From: a virus
Taxonomy: Duplodnaviria; Heunggongvirae; Uroviricota; Caudoviricetes
Virus record (IMG/VR): IMGVR_UViG_2526164629_000027
Length of the DNA: 37,247 nt
Strand: one strand, 5' to 3'
Position 1 is the first letter of the stretch; each line of letters opens with the position of its first letter. This document shows positions 4,116-36,547 of this stretch, in pieces. The notes under the pieces are model-generated. The model was given only the letters and a program-made list of their open reading frames with translations, ran no database searches and was not told the origin of the DNA. Made by a program: the position numbers and the translations under genes.

Positions 4116-4490
4116 GTGTCAGCAGAGCAAGACAAGCTGTCCAGGGCAGCCCAGAAAGATAATCAACATATGGCAGCGCTTTACGCACTGACCATCGCAA
4201 TAGCCACCTCTGAAGCAGCCAAAATTATTGAGGAACAGGGCAAAGAAATCGACACTCTTAAAACACAGTCAACAGTTGCAGCCATGAATCCGTCCAGCAT
4301 TGGACGCCGCATTTACATTCTTGGTTCGGCAATAATGACGCAATACACCATTATTGCCGAACTGCACGGCAACTACCTGATAACGCCTTACCACACAAAA
4401 GAGTCAGAGCTTCTGACAAATCTCCGCCTGATAGAACGATCTCAAGCTGTATTCATTGATGACGCGCAACGTGCCGTATTTCACGCATAG
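4116..4490 (+). CDS. Hypothetical early protein
   Basis: 124 aa ORF with GTG start; preceded by an 11-codon mini-ORF (4075-4110) with a strong SD; the true start may be the ATG at 4170. Confidence 0.45.
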   Translation: MSAEQDKLSRAAQKDNQHMAALYALTIAIATSEAAKIIEEQGKEIDTLKTQSTVAAMNPSSIGRRIYILGSAIMTQYTIIAELHGNYLITPYHTKESELLTNLRLIERSQAVFIDDAQRAVFHA

Positions 4491-4717: not shown

Positions 4718-4980
4718 CCATTCTGGACTACATCACTACACATCCGGGTTGTAGCGGCGGAGAAATCGCCGCAGCACTGAACACCCCAACCACAGCTATT
4801 AATGCTGAGTTACGCCGACTTTGGCGCAGCGGCTTAGTCATCAGAACAAACCGCAGCACAGGTGGTCGCGCTCGCAAAACTGGAGGCCAGGCTTCTTACC
4901 ACGTAAACCCGATGCCGTTCGGGTGTAGCAATCCACTTACTCACATGTTTAACCAGCTACTGAAGGAAGCCAGAACATGA
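4714..4980 (+). CDS. Hypothetical protein, possible winged-helix DNA-binding
   Basis: 88 aa; start overlaps the previous stop (ATGA); segment GEIAAALNTPTTAINAELRRLWRSGLV resembles a wHTH. Confidence 0.5.
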   Translation: MTILDYITTHPGCSGGEIAAALNTPTTAINAELRRLWRSGLVIRTNRSTGGRARKTGGQASYHVNPMPFGCSNPLTHMFNQLLKEART

Positions 4981-5276
4981 GCACCATCAACCACCAGAAG
5001 CTACGCGAACTGGCATTTGCCCTGCAACGAATGGCAACTCCTCAAAAATTACTGGCATTTCGCGTAATGCTCTCGCCGTCTGCTGTGCTGGCACTGCTGG
5101 ATCAGCTGGAGCACGCCAAAACCACGGCTCCTGCCATTCGCCTGACGCTCCATCATGAAATCGCTGATTTCTGCGCAACGCTGGGGGCACCTGGCGAACC
5201 GGAAACGCCGGAAGCAATGCAGCAAGAGCTGCTGCAACGCATTGACAAGGTTTTTGATTTTTTTCTGAACCAGTAA
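4977..5276 (+). CDS. Hypothetical early protein
   Basis: 99 aa ORF; start overlaps the previous stop. Confidence 0.5.
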   Translation: MSTINHQKLRELAFALQRMATPQKLLAFRVMLSPSAVLALLDQLEHAKTTAPAIRLTLHHEIADFCATLGAPGEPETPEAMQQELLQRIDKVFDFFLNQ

Positions 5277-5598
5277 GAAACCAGAACATGCACACACAAA
5301 AAAACCGCTTGCCATGTCGCAATCAGTCAGGTTACATTTCCGCTGCACCTCACAAAACGGGTGTCGGGTTTCGCAGCCTGCTGACTACACAAGCGCACAA
5401 CCGCGCCAGCGGTTTTTTTGTGCGTACTGTATTGCCACGTTTTTTTCGCGTCAGAATTATGGCGGGGCGTACGGGGCCGACTTCGGTCGGGCCGGGTTCT
5501 TGTGTAGCCGGTACTGCGAACCTCGTACGTCTCGCCACCCACAGTTTCGCAGCTCTGGATGGTGAGTTTTCACAACTTACTACACAAGGGGCCACACC

Positions 5599-5829
5599 AT
5601 GGCAAACCGCAAACCACACCGCGCTATCGCGGAGCGTCGTCACATCCAGACTGAAATCAACCGCAGACTTTCCCGCGCATCACGCGTCGCGCAAATCATG
5701 CACATCAATATGCTGCATGAGCGCAGCCACGCACTATCAAACATTTATTCCGCCTCTGTTTACAGCTATCTGGCGAATGATCTGCACGAGCTTCAACAGC
5801 TCATCCAGCAGCAAAACAAACACCATTAA
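5599..5829 (+). CDS. Hypothetical small protein
   Basis: 76 aa ORF with AGGGG-type SD; follows a 320-bp structured non-coding stretch. Confidence 0.4.
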   Translation: MANRKPHRAIAERRHIQTEINRRLSRASRVAQIMHINMLHERSHALSNIYSASVYSYLANDLHELQQLIQQQNKHH

Positions 5830-5901
5830 TTCCTGTTCCGGGCCTTTCCTGCACCTTGCGGCGGGAGGCCTTCGCACATCTGTAACAAGAGGATTGCCGC
5901 A

Positions 5902-6267
5902 ATGATTCTCGCCAACGACTTTCTTGAATACCTGCTCAACACAGAACGTGATCTTGCCGCTCGCGTGCGTGATCGTTATGACATGTACCTGAAATCCCTG
6001 CCTGTACCGCAACTCGCTGACGGAAAAATTGTTATTGATGGTCGCTACATGATCGACAGCCACGAGGGAAATTACAGGCTTTACCGCATTGAAGGTGGCA
6101 CCCCGTCCGTTATTGGCATTTACCAGCGCCCATCCTCTGCAATCGTCGATGTGATTGCCGACAGCATCCGCATCACACATCGCCATGCCGACACAGAAGA
6201 CACCGTGCTGGAAATTCAGCGGCTGGCTACCGTCTGCCGCGACACCCTGAATGGCATGACGAAGTAA
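5902..6267 (+). CDS. Hypothetical protein immediately upstream of the replication gene
   Basis: 121 aa ORF with SD AAGAGG; ends 6 nt before gene A. Confidence 0.55.
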   Translation: MILANDFLEYLLNTERDLAARVRDRYDMYLKSLPVPQLADGKIVIDGRYMIDSHEGNYRLYRIEGGTPSVIGIYQRPSSAIVDVIADSIRITHRHADTEDTVLEIQRLATVCRDTLNGMTK

Positions 6268-6273
6268 ATCACT

Positions 6274-9021
6274 ATGACGGCAGAGTACATCAGGGACTGG
6301 CAACAACCGCGCCACGCCGTGGGGCGTGAAGGAACGGGGATCCCCGCTCCTGAATCCGCGCTTTCCTCCTGGCTGGATGCCTACCGGGCAGAGAACGAAC
6401 GCCGCCAGGAAATGGCTGATGCGGCGTTCTCCGCCACGCCGCTGGGCAACCTGATTAATAAAAGCCTGGACGCACAGGAAAAACAGGACAAAACCATCAC
6501 ACTGGCAGGAGACGCCAGAAAACAGGCACGCGGCGCGGTGGATGAAGCCATGGCCTCGCTGCGCCTGCTGCCGTCCTATCTGCGCGATCCGCTTATTCGC
6601 CACCTCTCCTTCCTGCGCAAAAAACAGGAAGCCGATCGCCGGAAAGGCAAAAAGAGCTGGCAGGCGGAACGCTATGCACGCGGAACCCTGCGCAAAATAT
6701 TCGAACGTCTGGATCGCACTGACGGACACTGGCTGACACCGGGTTATCGCTCCCTTGCCGGACGCGAACGCCTGGACGATTTGCTTTACCTGCCGCAGCT
6801 CAACAAACACCAGATACAGACGCTGGCCACCATGACGGCGGCGATGTTCAGCAGCACCTTCGAAAAACTCTGCGATGGCTTTGGCGCGACCGATGGCGAG
6901 CTGACCATGGATGTAACGCTGAAGGCGTATCAGATGCTGGCCCGCATGGCGTTACACCTGCACGCCATGCCTCCACATTATGACGCACTGACAACAGACA
7001 AAGACCGGAGGAACGAACCAGACACGGAGCTGCTGCCGGGCGCAATCCTTCGCCTGACCTGTGCGGAATGGTGGAAACGCAAACTGTGGCTGTTACGTTG
7101 CGAGTGGAGAGAAGAACAACTCCGCGCCGCCTGTCTGGTTTCCAGAAAAACATCACCCTATCTGAGCCAGGACGCGTTAAGCGAGTTTCGCGCACAGCGC
7201 GAGAAAACACGCGATTTCCTGAAAAGTTTCATGCTAGAAAATGAAGACGGGTTCACGATTGATCTCGAGACGGTGTATTACGCGGGAGTAAGTAACCCGG
7301 TTCACCGTAAGGCAGAAATGATGGCCACCATGAAGGGACTGGAACTTCTGGCCGAAGCCCGTGGCGACAGAGCGGTGTTTCTGACTGTCACCTGCCCGTC
7401 AAAATACCACGCAACAACGGAGAACGGTCATCCGAACCCCAAATGGAACGGGGCCACCATGCGCGACTCCAGCGATTACCTGGTTAACACGTTTTTTGCG
7501 GCAGTCCGCAAAAAACTGAACCGCGACGGTCTGCGCTGGTATGGCATCCGCACGGTGGAGCCTCACCATGACGGCACCGTGCACTGGCATATGATGGTCT
7601 TTGCTCATCCGGAAGAAATCGACAGCATCGTGGCCATCACCCGCGATATTGCCATTCAGGAAGACCGCCACGAGCTGGGCAATGATATTACTCCGCGCTT
7701 TAAGGTGGAGTATGTCGACGGCTCAAAAGGCACACCAACCAGCTATATCGCGACCTACATCGGAAAAAACCTGGACAGCCGCGCCGTGGATGGCATCGAC
7801 CCGAAAACGGGCAAGCCACGCGTTGACCACGAAACCGGAAAATCAATGGCCGAGAGCGTGGAACGCGCCATCGGCTGGGCGCGCCTTCACCGGGTCCGCC
7901 AGTTCCAGTTCTTTGGTATCCCCTCCCGTCAGGTGTGGCGTGAACTGCGCCGCCTTGCCAGCCAGATGGCACGCAACCCGGAAGGCCCGCAACGGCTGAA
8001 GGATGACGCAATGGACGCGGTACTCGCTGCCGCTGATGCCGGATGTTTTGCCACCTACATTGAGAAACAGGGTGGCGTACTTGTTCCACGCAAAGACTAC
8101 CTGATTCGCACCGCCTACGACCTCGCAGATGAGCTGAACGATTACGGTGAACAGAGCGTACAGATTTACGGGATCTGGTCGCCGCTCATTGGGGAGTCTT
8201 CCCGCGTATGCACGCATCCGGATAACTGGAAGCTGGTAAGACGCAAACCGGAAGCGGAAGACAGCGCCCGCGAAAATGGTTTTGACCTTCAGGGCGGCCC
8301 TGCCGCCCCTTGGACTCGTGGCAATAACTGTCCCCGTGTACAGGAAACGGACAACAACGGGACAGAACAGCCGGAAGAACGGCCAGCACCGTGGCCGCGG
8401 CTTCCTGAAGGCGTTGACGTGAATGAATGGATGCGCTCACTGAAACGGCACGAACGCCGGGCACTGATGCGTTCGCTGCGTGACAAACAGGCAAAAAACA
8501 GCAGTGATGAAATGCAGAACTGGACACAGAGCCGCAAACAGCCACAGCCTTTGCCTGATAACCACGAGTTACTCGCTAAAGAATGGCGGGAGTCTGCTGA
8601 ATCTCTCGGCCTGCATATCGGTGAACAGCAGATGCAGCACCTGTTACGAGGCGGCAGTCTGTACGTTGGCGGCAGCATCATTGCACCGCAGGGATTTGAA
8701 ATTGTACGCAAACAGGATACCCGCCCGGACAGCCGAATCACGCAGCTCTGGCAACGCCTGAGTCGTAATCACGGCGTAAGCAGCACGGAGATCCGCCATA
8801 ACCCGGTCGCCAGCTATCTGGAACAACTAGAGGCATCAGACCCTGAAGCCGCCGCACGCCTGGCATCCACACTTCAGCAAGACCAGAACACCATGAAAAC
8901 ACCCGTTACCGTACTTTCTGACATGCTGCGCGCCATCCGCGACGCAGAGCACGCACAGAGAATCAGTGAAACCACTAAACATGCTCGCAAAAAAATCAGT
9001 TTATTGCATCGAACACGATAG
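6274..9021 (+). CDS. A: Replication initiation protein A (rolling-circle HUH endonuclease, P2 gpA family)
   Basis: 915 aa; HUH-type motif (HWHMMVFAH) and a tyrosine-pair motif (YIATYIGKN) characteristic of the P2 A family. Confidence 0.9.
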   Translation: MTAEYIRDWQQPRHAVGREGTGIPAPESALSSWLDAYRAENERRQEMADAAFSATPLGNLINKSLDAQEKQDKTITLAGDARKQARGAVDEAMASLRLLPSYLRDPLIRHLSFLRKKQEADRRKGKKSWQAERYARGTLRKIFERLDRTDGHWLTPGYRSLAGRERLDDLLYLPQLNKHQIQTLATMTAAMFSSTFEKLCDGFGATDGELTMDVTLKAYQMLARMALHLHAMPPHYDALTTDKDRRNEPDTELLPGAILRLTCAEWWKRKLWLLRCEWREEQLRAACLVSRKTSPYLSQDALSEFRAQREKTRDFLKSFMLENEDGFTIDLETVYYAGVSNPVHRKAEMMATMKGLELLAEARGDRAVFLTVTCPSKYHATTENGHPNPKWNGATMRDSSDYLVNTFFAAVRKKLNRDGLRWYGIRTVEPHHDGTVHWHMMVFAHPEEIDSIVAITRDIAIQEDRHELGNDITPRFKVEYVDGSKGTPTSYIATYIGKNLDSRAVDGIDPKTGKPRVDHETGKSMAESVERAIGWARLHRVRQFQFFGIPSRQVWRELRRLASQMARNPEGPQRLKDDAMDAVLAAADAGCFATYIEKQGGVLVPRKDYLIRTAYDLADELNDYGEQSVQIYGIWSPLIGESSRVCTHPDNWKLVRRKPEAEDSARENGFDLQGGPAAPWTRGNNCPRVQETDNNGTEQPEERPAPWPRLPEGVDVNEWMRSLKRHERRALMRSLRDKQAKNSSDEMQNWTQSRKQPQPLPDNHELLAKEWRESAESLGLHIGEQQMQHLLRGGSLYVGGSIIAPQGFEIVRKQDTRPDSRITQLWQRLSRNHGVSSTEIRHNPVASYLEQLEASDPEAAARLASTLQQDQNTMKTPVTVLSDMLRAIRDAEHAQRISETTKHARKKISLLHRTR

Positions 9022-12063: not shown

Positions 12064-12108
12064 GCTGCTTCGCCGGGGCATAAATTTTTTATGCCCCGGC
12101 GAAGCAGC
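12064..12108. repeat. Perfect 18-bp inverted repeat with 9-nt A/T loop
   Basis: gctgcttcgccggggcat - aaatttttt - atgccccggcgaagcagc; GC-rich stem in an intergenic region between the cargo operon and the next gene. Confidence 0.8.
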
Positions 12109-26409: not shown

Positions 26410-26804
26410 TGACATTCAGAATGAGTGAACAATCACGGACCATAAAAATTTATAATCTACTGACCGGAACCAATGAGTTTATTGGTGAAGGTGATGCATA
26501 CATTCCACCTCATACAGGTCTGCCTGCAAACAGTACCGATATTGCCCCGCCAGATATTCCGGCTGGCTTCGTGGCCGTTTTCAACAGTGATGAGGCATCG
26601 TGGCATCTCGTTGAAGACCATCGGGGTAAAACTGTTTATGACGTGGCATCAGGGGACTCGTTATTTATTTCTGAACTCGGTCCATTACCGGAAAATGTTA
26701 CCTGGTTGTCGCCGTATGGAGAGTATCAGAAGTGGAACGGCACATCCTGGGTGAAAGATGCAGAAGCAGAAAAACTGTTTCGGATAAGGGAGGCGGAAGA
26801 ATAA
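26409..26804 (+). CDS. G: Tail fibre assembly chaperone, N-terminal part (P2 gpG/Tfa family)
   Basis: 131 aa; position immediately after H; its conserved C-terminal Tfa region is in another frame. Confidence 0.7.
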
Positions 26805-26986
26805 AAAACAGCCTGATGCAGGTAGCCAGCGAGCATATTGCGCCACTTCAGGATGCCGTAGATTTGGATATTGCAACGGAGGAAGAGGCATCGTTACTGG
26901 CTGCATGGAAGACATACCGGGTATTGTTGAATCGTGTTAATACAGCGGTAGCAGCGGATGTTGAGTGGCCAGTCGCCCCACAATAA
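26732..26986 (+). CDS. Tail fibre assembly chaperone, C-terminal conserved region in a different frame (frameshifted continuation of G)
   Basis: Translation ...[61 protein letters not shown] matches conserved Tfa C-termini; no credible independent start. Confidence 0.5.
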
Positions 26987-36244: not shown

Positions 36245-36331
36245 TGGTACCCGGAGCGGGACTTGAACCCGCACAGCGCGAACGCCGAGGGATTTTAAAT
36301 CCCTTGTGTCTACCGATTCCACCATCCGGGC
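36245..36331 (-). tRNA. leuZ: tRNA-Leu (anticodon UAA)
   Basis: 87-nt minus-strand sequence gcccggatggtggaatcggtagacacaagggatttaaaatccc...gggtacca with long variable arm and CCA end. Confidence 0.9.
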
Positions 36332-36343
36332 TCGGGAAGAAAG

Positions 36344-36417
36344 TGGAGGCGCGTTCCGGAGTCGAACCGGACTAGACGGATTTGCAATCCGCTACATAAC
36401 CGCTTTGTTAACGCGCC
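36344..36417 (-). tRNA. cysT: tRNA-Cys (anticodon GCA)
   Basis: 74-nt minus-strand sequence ggcgcgttaacaaagcggttatgtagcggattgcaaatccg...cgcctcca. Confidence 0.9.
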
Positions 36418-36471
36418 AAATTCTTCAGGCCTTTCAGCCAGACATCCGCTTGACGCCGATGTCTTTTAAAC

Positions 36472-36547
<76 letters not shown>

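What the first reader, a model, noticed from the sequence alone, without database searches (positions are those of the whole stretch)
5280..5598. 320-bp structured non-coding stretch inside the early operon
This gap between early genes contains a 14-bp perfect inverted repeat pair (cacaaaaaaaccgc at 5295-5308 and its complement at 5409-5422), a short hairpin plus T7 run at 5401-5419 resembling an intrinsic terminator, a UUCG-loop hairpin (ccgacttcggtcgg), and two copies of GTTTCGCAGC each followed by ACTACACAAG (around 5372-5397 and 5543-5590). The listed ORFs here are low-complexity and overlapping. It may encode a small RNA, an attenuator controlling entry into the replication genes, or protein-binding iterons.
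Basis: seen in the sequence. Interest (0 to 1): 0.4.

Follow-up and report, generated by a model that had tools for sequence, protein, structure and literature searches.

The report
Phage antisense-RNA immunity switch (IsrK–C4)
The "structured gap" is a known kind of phage RNA switch, best studied in phages P4 and P1. A small antisense RNA (C4/CI) pairs with two matching sites on its own transcript to keep an anti-repressor gene, and probably the replication genes behind it, switched off in the dormant prophage. It is an ordinary though unannotated member of that kind.

Summary
Rfam finds two curated RNA families above threshold: an IsrK/seqA-type leader RNA (5345-5419) and a C4/CI antisense RNA (5455-5542).

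They are exactly complementary to two unpaired segments of C4. Site b2 abuts the ribosome-binding site of the next gene, a homologue of the P4 epsilon anti-repressor.

Across about 100 related loci, including P4 and P1, the C4 segments and both target pairs change together. At least 14 specificity alleles were seen, which is decisive evidence for RNA-RNA pairing and against iterons.

The UUCG hairpin is a C4 stem-loop. A conserved promoter (5309-5338) sits directly upstream of the IsrK-like RNA.

A 205-codon ORF spanning the module corresponds to P4 "eta" (Pfam Phage_ASH).

The host is a P2-like Xuanwuvirus (P88-like) prophage. The module occurs in 21% of complete E. coli genomes, where it is never annotated as RNA.

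The 14-nt inverted repeat is real, non-random and specific to this lineage, but its function remains unexplained.

Verdict: new member of a known kind; low interest.

The parts
5288..5905 (+). ORF205, the positional analogue of P4 eta. It starts upstream of the internal promoter, spans both RNA genes, overlaps orf76 out of frame, and ends in ATGA with the start of orf121.
   Evidence: Pfam Phage_ASH matches residues 16-109 (24.9 bits, just under the cut-off of 26). The P4 eta ORF hits the same family at 82 bits. The frame is open with an in-frame ATG in 77 of 84 related loci.
5292..5312 (+). Left arm of the long-range inverted repeat (core 5295-5308). It lies just 5' of the -35 box, so it is present only on transcripts that come from upstream.
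5309..5338 (+). Internal sigma-70-type promoter, TTGCCA-18-TACATT. The predicted start is near 5345, which is the 5' end of the IsrK-like RNA. It is the positional analogue of P4 PLE and Gifsy-1 PisrK.
   Evidence: The hexamers are invariant in 44 unique relatives. They are also kept in L095-L100, where the spacer sequence has diverged. Promoter-like boxes sit at the same place in all 9 distant loci.
5345..5419 (+). IsrK / P4-seqA-type leader RNA: two 5' hairpins, a single-stranded linker and an intrinsic terminator.
   Evidence: Rfam RF01394, 61.9 bits against a threshold of 50, full length.
5370..5376 (+). a1 target site (TTCGCAG), in the loop of IsrK hairpin 2.
5385..5393 (+). b1 target site (CTACACAAG), in the single-stranded linker of the IsrK-like RNA.
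5399..5419 (+). Intrinsic terminator of the IsrK-like RNA: stem 5399-5414, U-run 5413-5419. It is flanked by a conserved outer stem, 5393-5397 / 5420-5424.
5405..5425 (+). Right arm of the long-range inverted repeat. It covers the terminator loop, the 3' half-stem, the U-run and the 3' strand of the outer stem.
5455..5542 (+). C4 / P4-CI-type antisense RNA. It has a long closing stem, a UUCG hairpin (5477-5490), a second hairpin whose loop carries b' (5499-5507), and an unpaired segment a' (5514-5520).
   Evidence: Rfam RF01695, 83.2 bits against a threshold of 45. Of 27 pairs, 14 show compensatory changes and none is broken in 14 sequences. Complementarity to the targets is shown.
5546..5552 (+). 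a2 target site (TTCGCAG), 4 nt after the 3' end of C4, as in P1.
5580..5591 (+). b2 target site (5580-5588), overlapping the Shine-Dalgarno sequence AAGGGG (5586-5591) of orf76.
   Evidence: The spacing from b2 to the ATG is 10 nt, the same as P1 b2 to icd.
5599..5829 (+). orf76, the first gene controlled by C4. It is a homologue of the P4 epsilon helper-derepression (anti-repressor) protein.
   Evidence: Pfam PF25738 Derepression, 29.2 bits against a cut-off of 27. BLASTP against P4 epsilon gives 27% identity, E = 3e-8. It matches phrog_3688.
5902..9021 (+). Downstream genes presumed subject to polarity: orf121 (5902-6267) and the P2-type replication initiator gene A (6274-9021).
   Evidence: Pfam Phage_GPA, E = 1.6e-130. 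Gene order is the same in P88, P884B11 and Shae_phiSM.

Best explanation
The stretch is a P4/P1-type antisense-RNA immunity module, sitting in the early operon of a P2-like Xuanwuvirus (P88-like) prophage.

Shown at sequence level:
- A promoter at 5309-5338 lies directly upstream of an IsrK/seqA-type leader RNA (5345-5419). That RNA carries target sites a1 and b1 and ends in an intrinsic terminator.
- Downstream lies a C4/CI-type RNA (5455-5542). Its hairpin loop b' and unpaired segment a' are complementary to a1/b1.
- They are also complementary to a second site pair, a2/b2, just 3' of C4. Site b2 overlaps the ribosome-binding site of orf76, a homologue of the P4 epsilon anti-repressor.

Inferred from P1, P4 and Gifsy-1 precedent:
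- In the lysogen, most transcripts from the internal promoter stop at the terminator and give the short IsrK-like RNA.
- Read-through transcripts are processed into stable C4.
- C4 pairs with a2/b2, blocks translation of orf76, and so exposes the untranslated RNA to Rho-dependent termination. This keeps the anti-repressor, orf121 and replication gene A silent.
- It does the same in trans to an incoming phage that carries the same a/b allele.
- The a1/b1 leader pairs with the same C4 segments, in cis or as a free small RNA, and so tunes or titrates C4.
- When the main early promoter fires, transcripts from upstream carry the start of the Eta-like ORF205. Ribosomes translating through the module override termination, as eta does in P4.
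For: - Rfam C4 and isrK match at full length above their curated thresholds.
- The same tandem isrK-C4 pair is found in P4, where it corresponds to seqA and CI, and in P88, Shae_phiSM, Stx phages, mEp460, and Klebsiella, Salmonella and Hafnia phages. P1 has the C4 match plus a c4-a1b1 match.
- In the window there is exact 9-nt and 7-nt complementarity between the C4 segments and both site pairs.
- The three elements covary. At least 10 alleles occur among 83 near-identical Xuanwuvirus loci, with 7-9 of 9 positions paired in every cognate set. More alleles appear, and in distant phages.
- Predicted cognate duplexes average -29 and -32 kcal/mol against -18 and -20 for non-cognate ones. The cognate is the best partner in 16 of 17 and 15 of 17 cases.
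- The C4 fold is supported by 14 compensatory pairs and no broken pairs.
- The layout and spacings match the curated P1 immI annotation, promoter-a1-b1-c4-a2-b2-icd.
- Promoter hexamers are conserved across a diverged spacer.
- orf76 belongs to the Derepression family and is homologous to P4 epsilon.
- ORF205 matches P4 eta / Phage_ASH.
- Literature: IsrK and C4 are structural homologues of P4 seqA and CI (PMC3632133; PMC4825925). The eta/kil/CI mechanism is summarised in PMC10111431. C4 control of icd and ant in P1 is described in PMC8198154.
Against: - No expression data exist for this phage. Transcript ends, C4 processing, repression of orf76 and Rho polarity are all inferred by homology.
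- Downstream content differs from every characterised system. There is no kil nested in frame, no icd or ant, and the replication gene is P2 type A.
- ORF205 is out of frame with the gene that follows b2, unlike eta and kil in P4. Its Pfam score is just below threshold.
- An open +1 frame across orf76 is expected by chance in 6-12% of cases.
- Two draft genomes each carry two loci of the same allele. The pair from one genome differs in sequence, but the other pair lies at contig ends and may be one prophage. So the heteroimmunity prediction is untested rather than supported.
Confidence: 0.85

Rival explanations
1. The interval is simply a protein-coding gene, an 'Ash family' transcriptional regulator (ORF205, 5288-5905). 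On this view the repeats and hairpins are incidental.
For: - The ORF is open with a conserved in-frame ATG in 77 of 84 relatives.
- Pfam Phage_ASH matches at E = 2.9e-5, and PHROGs labelled 'transcriptional regulator' match at about E = 1e-14.
- GenBank and RefSeq records annotate it as ash family protein, transcriptional regulator or hypothetical protein.
Against: - The Phage_ASH match covers exactly the RNA module (nt 5333-5614). The same family is hit by the P4 eta ORF where eta overlaps seqA and CI.
- According to the literature, what matters for eta is that it is translated (PMC10111431).
- Variation among relatives is concentrated in the a/b sites and preserves three-way RNA complementarity.
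- The C4 stems show compensatory changes.
- The ORF overlaps the well-supported orf76 out of frame along its whole length.
- 7 of 84 loci are truncated.
- A second frame (5314-5565) is also open across the module, so an open frame here is weak evidence.
Confidence: 0.07
2. The direct repeats are iterons or operator sites, bound by a replication or repressor protein.
For: Two direct copies of a bipartite motif lie just upstream of the replication genes.
Against: - There are only two direct copies, plus a third in inverted orientation that falls exactly in the unpaired segments of a covariance-model-supported RNA.
- Alleles change in all three copies so as to preserve complementarity, which a DNA-binding site would not require.
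- No motif is shared with the main early promoter/operator region.
Confidence: 0.02
3. The module is an inactive evolutionary remnant in this P2-like phage. It would be homologous to the P4 and P1 systems but no longer regulating anything.
For: - There are no functional data for Xuanwuviruses.
- P2-type phages already have a C repressor/Cox switch.
Against: - Promoter hexamers, terminator, C4 stems and all six pairing segments are intact in about 100 loci.
- They diversify by coordinated triple changes, which requires ongoing selection for pairing.
- One genome even carries a tandem duplicate of the module with a different allele.
Confidence: 0.05

Closest known systems
Satellite phage P4 immunity region (PLE - seqA - CI RNA/seqB - seqC, with the overlapping eta/kil ORF, followed by epsilon)
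   Same: - Both RNA genes hit the same Rfam families in P4: isrK corresponds to the seqA region and C4 to CI.
- Two target pairs flank the RNA gene and are complementary to its unpaired segments.
- There is a constitutive-type promoter inside a long ORF that spans the RNA genes. The P4 eta ORF and the window's ORF205 both match Pfam Phage_ASH.
- A homologue of epsilon, the derepression protein, lies downstream, followed by the replication gene.
   Different: - The host element is a complete P2-like phage, not a satellite.
- The replication gene is the P2-type nickase A, not the alpha primase-helicase.
- The epsilon homologue is the first gene after b2. There is no kil.
- The Eta-like ORF is out of frame with the gene after b2.
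- The spacer between IsrK and C4 is 35 nt, against 107 nt in P4.
- The long-range inverted repeat is absent from P4.
Phage P1/P7 immI operon (P51 promoters - a1 b1 - c4 - a2 b2 - icd - ant1/2)
   Same: - The order is identical and the spacings nearly so. C4 end to a2 is 4 nt in both. b2 end to the start codon is 10 nt in both. a1 to b1 is 14 nt in P1 and 15 nt here.
- Both have a C4 Rfam match.
- The logic is the same: an antisense RNA blocks the ribosome-binding site of the first ORF upstream of an anti-repressor (PMC8198154).
   Different: - The downstream genes are unrelated. A Derepression-family protein stands in place of Icd and Ant.
- The P1 leader scores below threshold for isrK (35 bits) and fits c4-a1b1 instead. 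The window does the reverse.
- No operator shared with the main early promoter region was found at the internal promoter.
Salmonella Gifsy-1 isrK - orf45/STnc1160 - anrP locus
   Same: - An IsrK small RNA with its own promoter and a leaky terminator is followed by a processed C4-like RNA and an anti-repressor gene.
- The predicted fold of the read-through transcript pairs the middle of IsrK with the C4 region in cis. This resembles the experimentally supported 'structure A' (PMC4825925).
   Different: - Gifsy-1 is lambdoid.
- Its anti-repressor AnrP is translationally coupled to a 45-codon ORF that overlaps the C4-like RNA.
- Its output is the AntQ antiterminator.
- In Gifsy-1, IsrK was shown to activate in trans. 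Whether the leader activates or assists repression here is unknown.

Membership tests
Rfam RF01695 C4 antisense RNA (P1/P7 C4, P4 CI) | Full-length match to the covariance model above the curated gathering score | tested here: met
   83.2 bits against 45, model positions 1-87 of 87, at 5455-5542 on the + strand.
Rfam RF01695 C4 antisense RNA (P1/P7 C4, P4 CI) | Long closing stem enclosing two hairpins, supported by covariation | tested here: met
   There are 27 pairs. 14 have compensatory double changes and none is broken, across 14 diverse sequences including P4.
Rfam RF01695 C4 antisense RNA (P1/P7 C4, P4 CI) | Unpaired segments a' and b' complementary to one site pair upstream (a1/b1) and one downstream (a2/b2) on the same transcript | tested here: met
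   Exact 7-nt and 9-nt complementarity. Three-way covariation over at least 14 alleles. Cognate duplexes are more stable than non-cognate ones.
Rfam RF01695 C4 antisense RNA (P1/P7 C4, P4 CI) | b2 overlaps the ribosome-binding site of the first downstream ORF | tested here: met
   b2 is 5580-5588, the Shine-Dalgarno sequence AAGGGG is 5586-5591, and the ATG is at 5599. The arrangement is the same in all loci and in the P1 annotation.
Rfam RF01695 C4 antisense RNA (P1/P7 C4, P4 CI) | A stable RNA of about 77-90 nt is processed from a longer transcript and represses downstream expression | not testable with these tools
   Needs Northern blots or RNA-seq, and reporter fusions, in a lysogen.
Rfam RF01394 isrK / P4 seqA leader | Covariance-model match above the gathering score, ending in a Rho-independent terminator | tested here: met
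   61.9 bits against 50 at 5345-5419. Terminator stem 5399-5414 plus T7 run.
Rfam RF01394 isrK / P4 seqA leader | Own promoter immediately upstream | tested here: met
   TTGCCA-18-TACATT at 5309-5338 places the start near 5345. The hexamers are conserved although the spacer has diverged. This is sequence-level evidence only.
Rfam RF01394 isrK / P4 seqA leader | Hfq binding and trans-acting regulatory activity | not testable with these tools
   Experimental property, described in PMC4825925.
P4-type left-operon immunity cassette (eta/kil, CI, epsilon) | A long ORF that begins upstream of the internal promoter and spans the RNA genes (eta; Pfam Phage_ASH) | tested here: inconclusive
   ORF205 has the right position and is open in 77 of 84 loci. 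Its Phage_ASH score is 24.9 bits, below the cut-off of 26, whereas P4 eta scores 82 bits. BLASTP of ORF205 against eta is not significant.
P4-type left-operon immunity cassette (eta/kil, CI, epsilon) | The gene after seqC (kil) is nested in frame within eta | tested here: not met
   orf76 is in a different frame from ORF205 in the window, P88 and Shae_phiSM. The two are in frame in P4, mEp460 and ASU11.
P4-type left-operon immunity cassette (eta/kil, CI, epsilon) | An epsilon (helper derepression) homologue lies downstream | tested here: met
   PF25738, 29.2 bits against 27. 27% identity to P4 epsilon, E = 3e-8.
P1 immI operon | icd and ant genes downstream of b2 | tested here: not met
   There is no Icd or Ant family hit. 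orf76 belongs to the Derepression family and orf121 has no Pfam family.
Replication iterons | Several same-orientation repeats that act as double-stranded DNA binding sites for an initiator | tested here: not met
   There are only two direct copies. A third, inverted copy lies in the RNA's unpaired segments. The covariation preserves complementarity.

The most novel reading that the evidence does not exclude
In Xuanwuvirus (P88-like, P2-type) phages, the P4/P1-type module may have acquired wiring of its own.

(1) A left arm of 14-21 nt is present only on transcripts from the main early promoter. It can replace the IsrK terminator hairpin, so termination would depend on which promoter the transcript came from.

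(2) The Eta-like ORF is shifted out of frame. Ribosomes translating it would be delivered to orf121 and gene A, while the epsilon-like anti-repressor would stay under C4 control.

(3) At least 14 a/b alleles reassort freely, and one locus carries tandem double cassettes. Together they could form a combinatorial RNA immunity code, used in competition among co-resident P2-like prophages and P4-like satellites.
Probability: 0.2. Interest if true: 0.5.

Novelty: new member of a known kind. Interest (0 to 1): 0.25.

Why it matters
- It explains a 320-bp "gap" that is present in about a fifth of complete E. coli genomes. Public records label it as a hypothetical protein, an Ash-family protein or a transcriptional regulator, never as RNA.
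- It shows that a whole genus of P2-like phages carries the RNA immunity cassette usually associated with the satellite P4 and with P1. That adds a second, RNA-based layer to the classic P2 C/Cox switch.
- It links that RNA layer to a homologue of the P4 epsilon anti-repressor.
- The natural allele series, with three sites changing together in otherwise near-identical DNA, is a ready-made set of orthogonal antisense/target pairs. It is also a clean example of co-evolution between an RNA and its targets.
- None of this changes what is known about the mechanism, so the finding is mainly useful for annotation and comparison.

Tried and rejected
- Iterons or operator sites: rejected on covariation and orientation. 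No motif is shared with the main early promoter region, and there is no LexA-like box.
- Second promoter-like site, 5432-5460 (TTGCCA-17-AATTAT): judged probably fortuitous. Its -10 box is the conserved 5' leader of C4, its -35 box varies among relatives (TTGCCA, TCGCCA, TTGCTA), and the distant loci have only a 24-nt spacer with no such site.
- Covariation test of the long-range inverted repeat: not informative. Both arms are invariant in 83 Xuanwuvirus loci and in 3 species-level hits. A more divergent sub-lineage (L097, L099, L100) has a shortened left arm (A5, no ATG) while the right arm is unchanged. So the perfect repeat is not universally conserved.
- ORF205 as a real protein: BLASTP against P4 eta is not significant. 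An open frame across orf76 is expected by chance in 6-12% of cases.
- orf121 against P4 ORF151: no similarity.
- Heteroimmunity of co-resident prophages: only two draft genomes had two loci, and each pair carried the same allele. One of those pairs lies at contig ends and may be a single prophage. The test is inconclusive. The other copies in complete genomes with 2-4 places could not be retrieved with the tools.
- Original P4 papers (Sabbattini 1995; Forti 1999): not held. Their content is cited through PMC10111431, PMC3632133 and PMC4825925.
- The genome-contig scan returned only 3 loci.

Full report
**The observation.**
- The 14-nt perfect inverted repeat lies at 5295-5308 / 5409-5422. It extends to 19/21 complementary over 5292-5312 / 5405-5425. 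It is the only non-local inverted repeat of at least 14 nt (arms up to 300 nt apart) in the 37-kb window.
- The hairpin plus T7 run is at 5399-5419, and the terminator scan picks it up.
- The UUCG hairpin is at 5477-5490.
- The bipartite repeat GTTTCGCAGC ... ACTACACAAG occurs at 5368-5393 and at 5544-5588.
The 9-mer CTACACAAG occurs exactly three times in the window, all here.

**What it is.** A scan of the whole window against Rfam gives two full-length matches above curated thresholds.
- isrK (RF01394): 5345-5419, 61.9 bits against a threshold of 50.
- C4 antisense RNA (RF01695): 5455-5542, 83.2 bits against a threshold of 45.

The reverse-complement copies of the repeat halves fall in the two unpaired parts of the C4 fold. 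CUUGUGUAG is in the loop of the second hairpin (b'). CUGCGAA is in the single-stranded segment before the closing stem (a').
- a1 sits in the loop of the second IsrK hairpin, and b1 in the single-stranded linker before the terminator.
- a2 starts 4 nt after the end of C4.
- b2 (5580-5588) overlaps the Shine-Dalgarno sequence AAGGGG (5586-5591) of the next ORF, whose ATG is at 5599.

The curated annotation of phage P1 gives the same map: promoters, a1, b1, c4, a2, b2, icd, ant. The spacings are the same too: 4 nt from C4 to a2, and 10 nt from b2 to the start codon.

**Context.**
- The window is a P2-like prophage of the genus Xuanwuvirus. The stretch is 98-99% identical to PhiR44_2 and P884B11, and about 87-89% identical to P88 and Citrobacter phage Shae_phiSM.
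- The integrase and an XRE-type repressor lie on the minus strand at the left end. A long rightward early operon follows.
- The module lies between an Ead-like ORF (4977-5276) and orf76 (5599-5829).
- orf76 belongs to the Pfam Derepression family (29.2 bits against a cut-off of 27). It is 27% identical to the P4 epsilon helper-derepression protein, E = 3e-8.
- orf121 and the P2-type replication initiator A (Phage_GPA, E = 1.6e-130) follow.

**Comparative evidence.**
- The isrK-then-C4 tandem is found in the same order and on the same strand in nine other phages: P88, Shae_phiSM, an Stx phage, mEp460, ASU11, Klebsiella, Salmonella and Hafnia phages, and P4. In P4, the C4 match is the CI RNA and the isrK match is the seqA region. 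P1 has the C4 match plus the related c4-a1b1 family.
- In every one of these, the C4 unpaired segments are complementary to a site pair inside the leader and to a site pair just downstream that abuts a Shine-Dalgarno sequence and an ATG. The sequences differ from phage to phage.
- Among 83 Xuanwuvirus-type loci (44 unique sequences), the flanks are almost identical, yet there are at least 10 different a'/b' alleles. In each allele a1, a2, b1 and b2 have changed in step, with 7-9 of 9 positions paired. The a and b halves reassort independently. Further alleles appear in E. albertii, Salmonella and more divergent E. coli loci.
- Predicted cognate duplexes average -29 kcal/mol (leader) and -32 kcal/mol (downstream), against -18 and -20 for non-cognate pairs. 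The cognate is the best partner in 16 of 17 and 15 of 17 cases.
- The C4 fold has 27 pairs. 14 show compensatory changes and none is broken.

This three-way covariation is the strongest evidence that the repeats act as RNA-RNA pairing sites. It excludes iterons.

**Promoter.** TTGCCA-18-TACATT at 5309-5338 places the start near 5345, which is exactly the 5' end of the isrK match. The hexamers are invariant in the 44 unique relatives. They are also retained in a sub-lineage whose spacer sequence has diverged (L095-L100). The position corresponds to P4 PLE and to the Gifsy-1 isrK promoter. A second promoter-like site at 5432-5460 is probably fortuitous: its -10 box is the conserved C4 5' leader and its -35 box is variable.

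**The overlapping ORF.**
- ORF205 (5288-5905) starts 21 nt upstream of the -35 box, spans both RNA genes and orf76 (in another frame), and ends in ATGA with the start of orf121.
- It is open with an in-frame ATG in 77 of 84 related loci, despite five different upstream flanks.
- Residues 16-109, which are exactly the RNA module, match Pfam Phage_ASH (24.9 bits, just below the cut-off of 26). They also match PHROGs named 'transcriptional regulator'.
- The P4 ORF that spans seqA and CI is eta, with kil as its C-terminal part. It hits Phage_ASH at 82 bits. So do the N-terminal extensions of the annotated anti-repressor of mEp460 and the 'Ash family protein' of Hafnia phage yong2.
- According to the summary of Forti et al. 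1999 in PMC10111431, eta is translated only from an upstream promoter, and its translation prevents immunity-specific termination. ORF205 is the positional analogue.
- Unlike P4, mEp460 and ASU11, the three Xuanwuviruses have this ORF out of frame with the gene after b2.
- An open +1 frame across orf76 alone is not remarkable, with a 6-12% chance expectation.

I therefore treat ORF205 as a probable 'translated for its own sake' ORF and not as a regulator protein.

**Mechanism.** The anatomy above is shown at sequence level. The following steps are inferred by homology with P1, P4 and Gifsy-1.
1. In the lysogen, transcripts from the internal promoter mostly stop at the terminator, giving the IsrK-like RNA of about 75 nt.
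2. Read-through transcripts are processed to C4.
3. C4 pairs with a2/b2 and occludes the orf76 ribosome-binding site.
4. The untranslated RNA is then terminated. Rho is responsible in P1 and P4.
5. As a result the epsilon-like anti-repressor, orf121 and gene A stay off, both in cis and on an incoming phage of the same allele.
6. The leader's a1/b1 pairs with the same C4 segments. The minimum-free-energy fold of 5345-5612 forms exactly this cis helix. It resembles the experimentally supported inactive 'structure A' of Gifsy-1 (PMC4825925).
7. Transcripts from the main early promoter carry the ORF205 start, and ribosomes would override the block.

The logic is the same as in P1: C4 blocks the anti-repressor, which blocks the repressor (PMC8198154).

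**The inverted repeat.**
- Its right arm consists of the terminator loop, the 3' half-stem, the U-run and the 3' strand of an outer stem. That outer stem is conserved and covaries across phages: window CGCAC/GTGCG, P4 GCGACA/TGTCGC, F039 CGATACA/TGTATCG, P1 CGGACA/TGTCCG.
- Its left arm lies just 5' of the -35 box, so only transcripts from upstream contain it. It also covers codons 2-8 of ORF205.
- Folding 5285-5430 replaces the terminator hairpin by the long-range helix (-55 kcal/mol, z = -4.3). Folding 5345-5430 keeps the terminator.
- The arms are invariant in 86 loci, so covariation cannot be tested.
- The repeat is absent from the P4, P1 and lambdoid versions.
- A divergent E. coli sub-lineage has an opposite-strand gene just upstream in two of its three loci. 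All three have a shortened left arm (A5) and no ATG, while the right arm is unchanged.
- Possible roles are promoter-selective anti-termination, occlusion of the ORF205 start, a processing site, or an A-tract promoter element. None is established. On kinetic grounds, a distal competitor for the 3' half of a terminator stem is a weak anti-terminator.

**Comparison and novelty.** The closest known system is the P4 immunity region, followed by P1/P7 immI and the Gifsy-1 isrK locus. The equivalence of IsrK with seqA and of C4 with CI, and the presence of such modules in lambdoid prophages, are already published (PMC3632133; PMC4825925). At least one GenBank Stx-phage record annotates the isrK/C4 pair. 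Three things are not described in the papers I could find:
- the module's presence in P2-like Xuanwuvirus phages;
- its coupling there to an epsilon-like gene and a P2-type gene A;
- the large allele series.

The stretch occurs in 1148 of 5426 complete E. coli genomes, with up to four copies per genome. None of the sampled records annotates it as RNA. This is a new member of a known kind, and its interest is low to moderate.

Noticed in passing
window 5333-5614; L007 (P4) 8168-8812 minus strand; L005 2141-3292; L010 2288-2971: Pfam PF10554 'Phage_ASH', and PHROGs 6928, 995 and 821 ('transcriptional regulator'), match the translation of the isrK-C4-a2/b2 RNA module. Many records therefore annotate this RNA region as an Ash-family protein, a transcriptional regulator or an anti-repressor N-terminus. 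No record sampled from 1148 E. coli genomes annotates it as ncRNA.
   Followed up: partly
L099 (GCA_900448625.1, UGAA01000001.1) 1247-1722 and 2076-2500: Tandem duplication of the whole cassette (isrK + C4 + epsilon-like ORF), with two different specificity alleles. Unit 1 has a' GTGGAAA and b' CTTCGTTTG. Unit 2 has a' CTGCGAA and b' CTTTGCTAG.
   Followed up: partly
L078 (IMGVR_UViG_2582580934_000004), C4 region: A 17-nt insertion gives C4 two tandem b' hairpins that carry the loops of two different alleles (CTTTGCTCT and CTTGTGTAG). It is either a recombinant with dual specificity or an assembly artefact.
   Followed up: no
window 5393-5397 / 5420-5424, and the equivalent positions in L004, L006, L007, L008, L010 and L091: A conserved, covarying outer stem encloses the IsrK terminator hairpin and its U-run as an internal loop. 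It lies beyond the 3' end of the Rfam isrK model and can form only on read-through transcripts.
   Followed up: partly
window 26752-26949 (+): Full-length match to Rfam IS009 (RF02111, 184 bits) in the late-gene part of the prophage.
   Followed up: no
window 36245-36547 (-): Three tRNA genes (Leu-TAA, Cys-GCA, Gly-GCC) lie at the right end of the window, presumably host DNA flanking the prophage. The integrase ORF lies at the opposite end, 1-1002 on the minus strand.
   Followed up: no
window 12064-12108: A perfect 21-bp hairpin with a 3-nt loop (GCTGCTTCGCCGGGGCATAAA / TTTATGCCCCGGCGAAGCAGC). It is the strongest local inverted repeat in the window. There is also a 14-bp perfect inverted repeat at 4324-4362.
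   Followed up: no
L094 (NZ_JBQPOM010000071.1, labelled Vagococcus sp. WN89Y): A 226-kb contig labelled as a Firmicute carries a typical enterobacterial P88-like module: 84% protein identity for orf76, and an identical promoter and terminator. The assembly is probably contaminated or mislabelled.
   Followed up: no
window 9098 onward; L001 8974-10249: Genes annotated as plasmid-partition-like (ParA/ParB-type) follow replication gene A in these P2-like phages.
   Followed up: no
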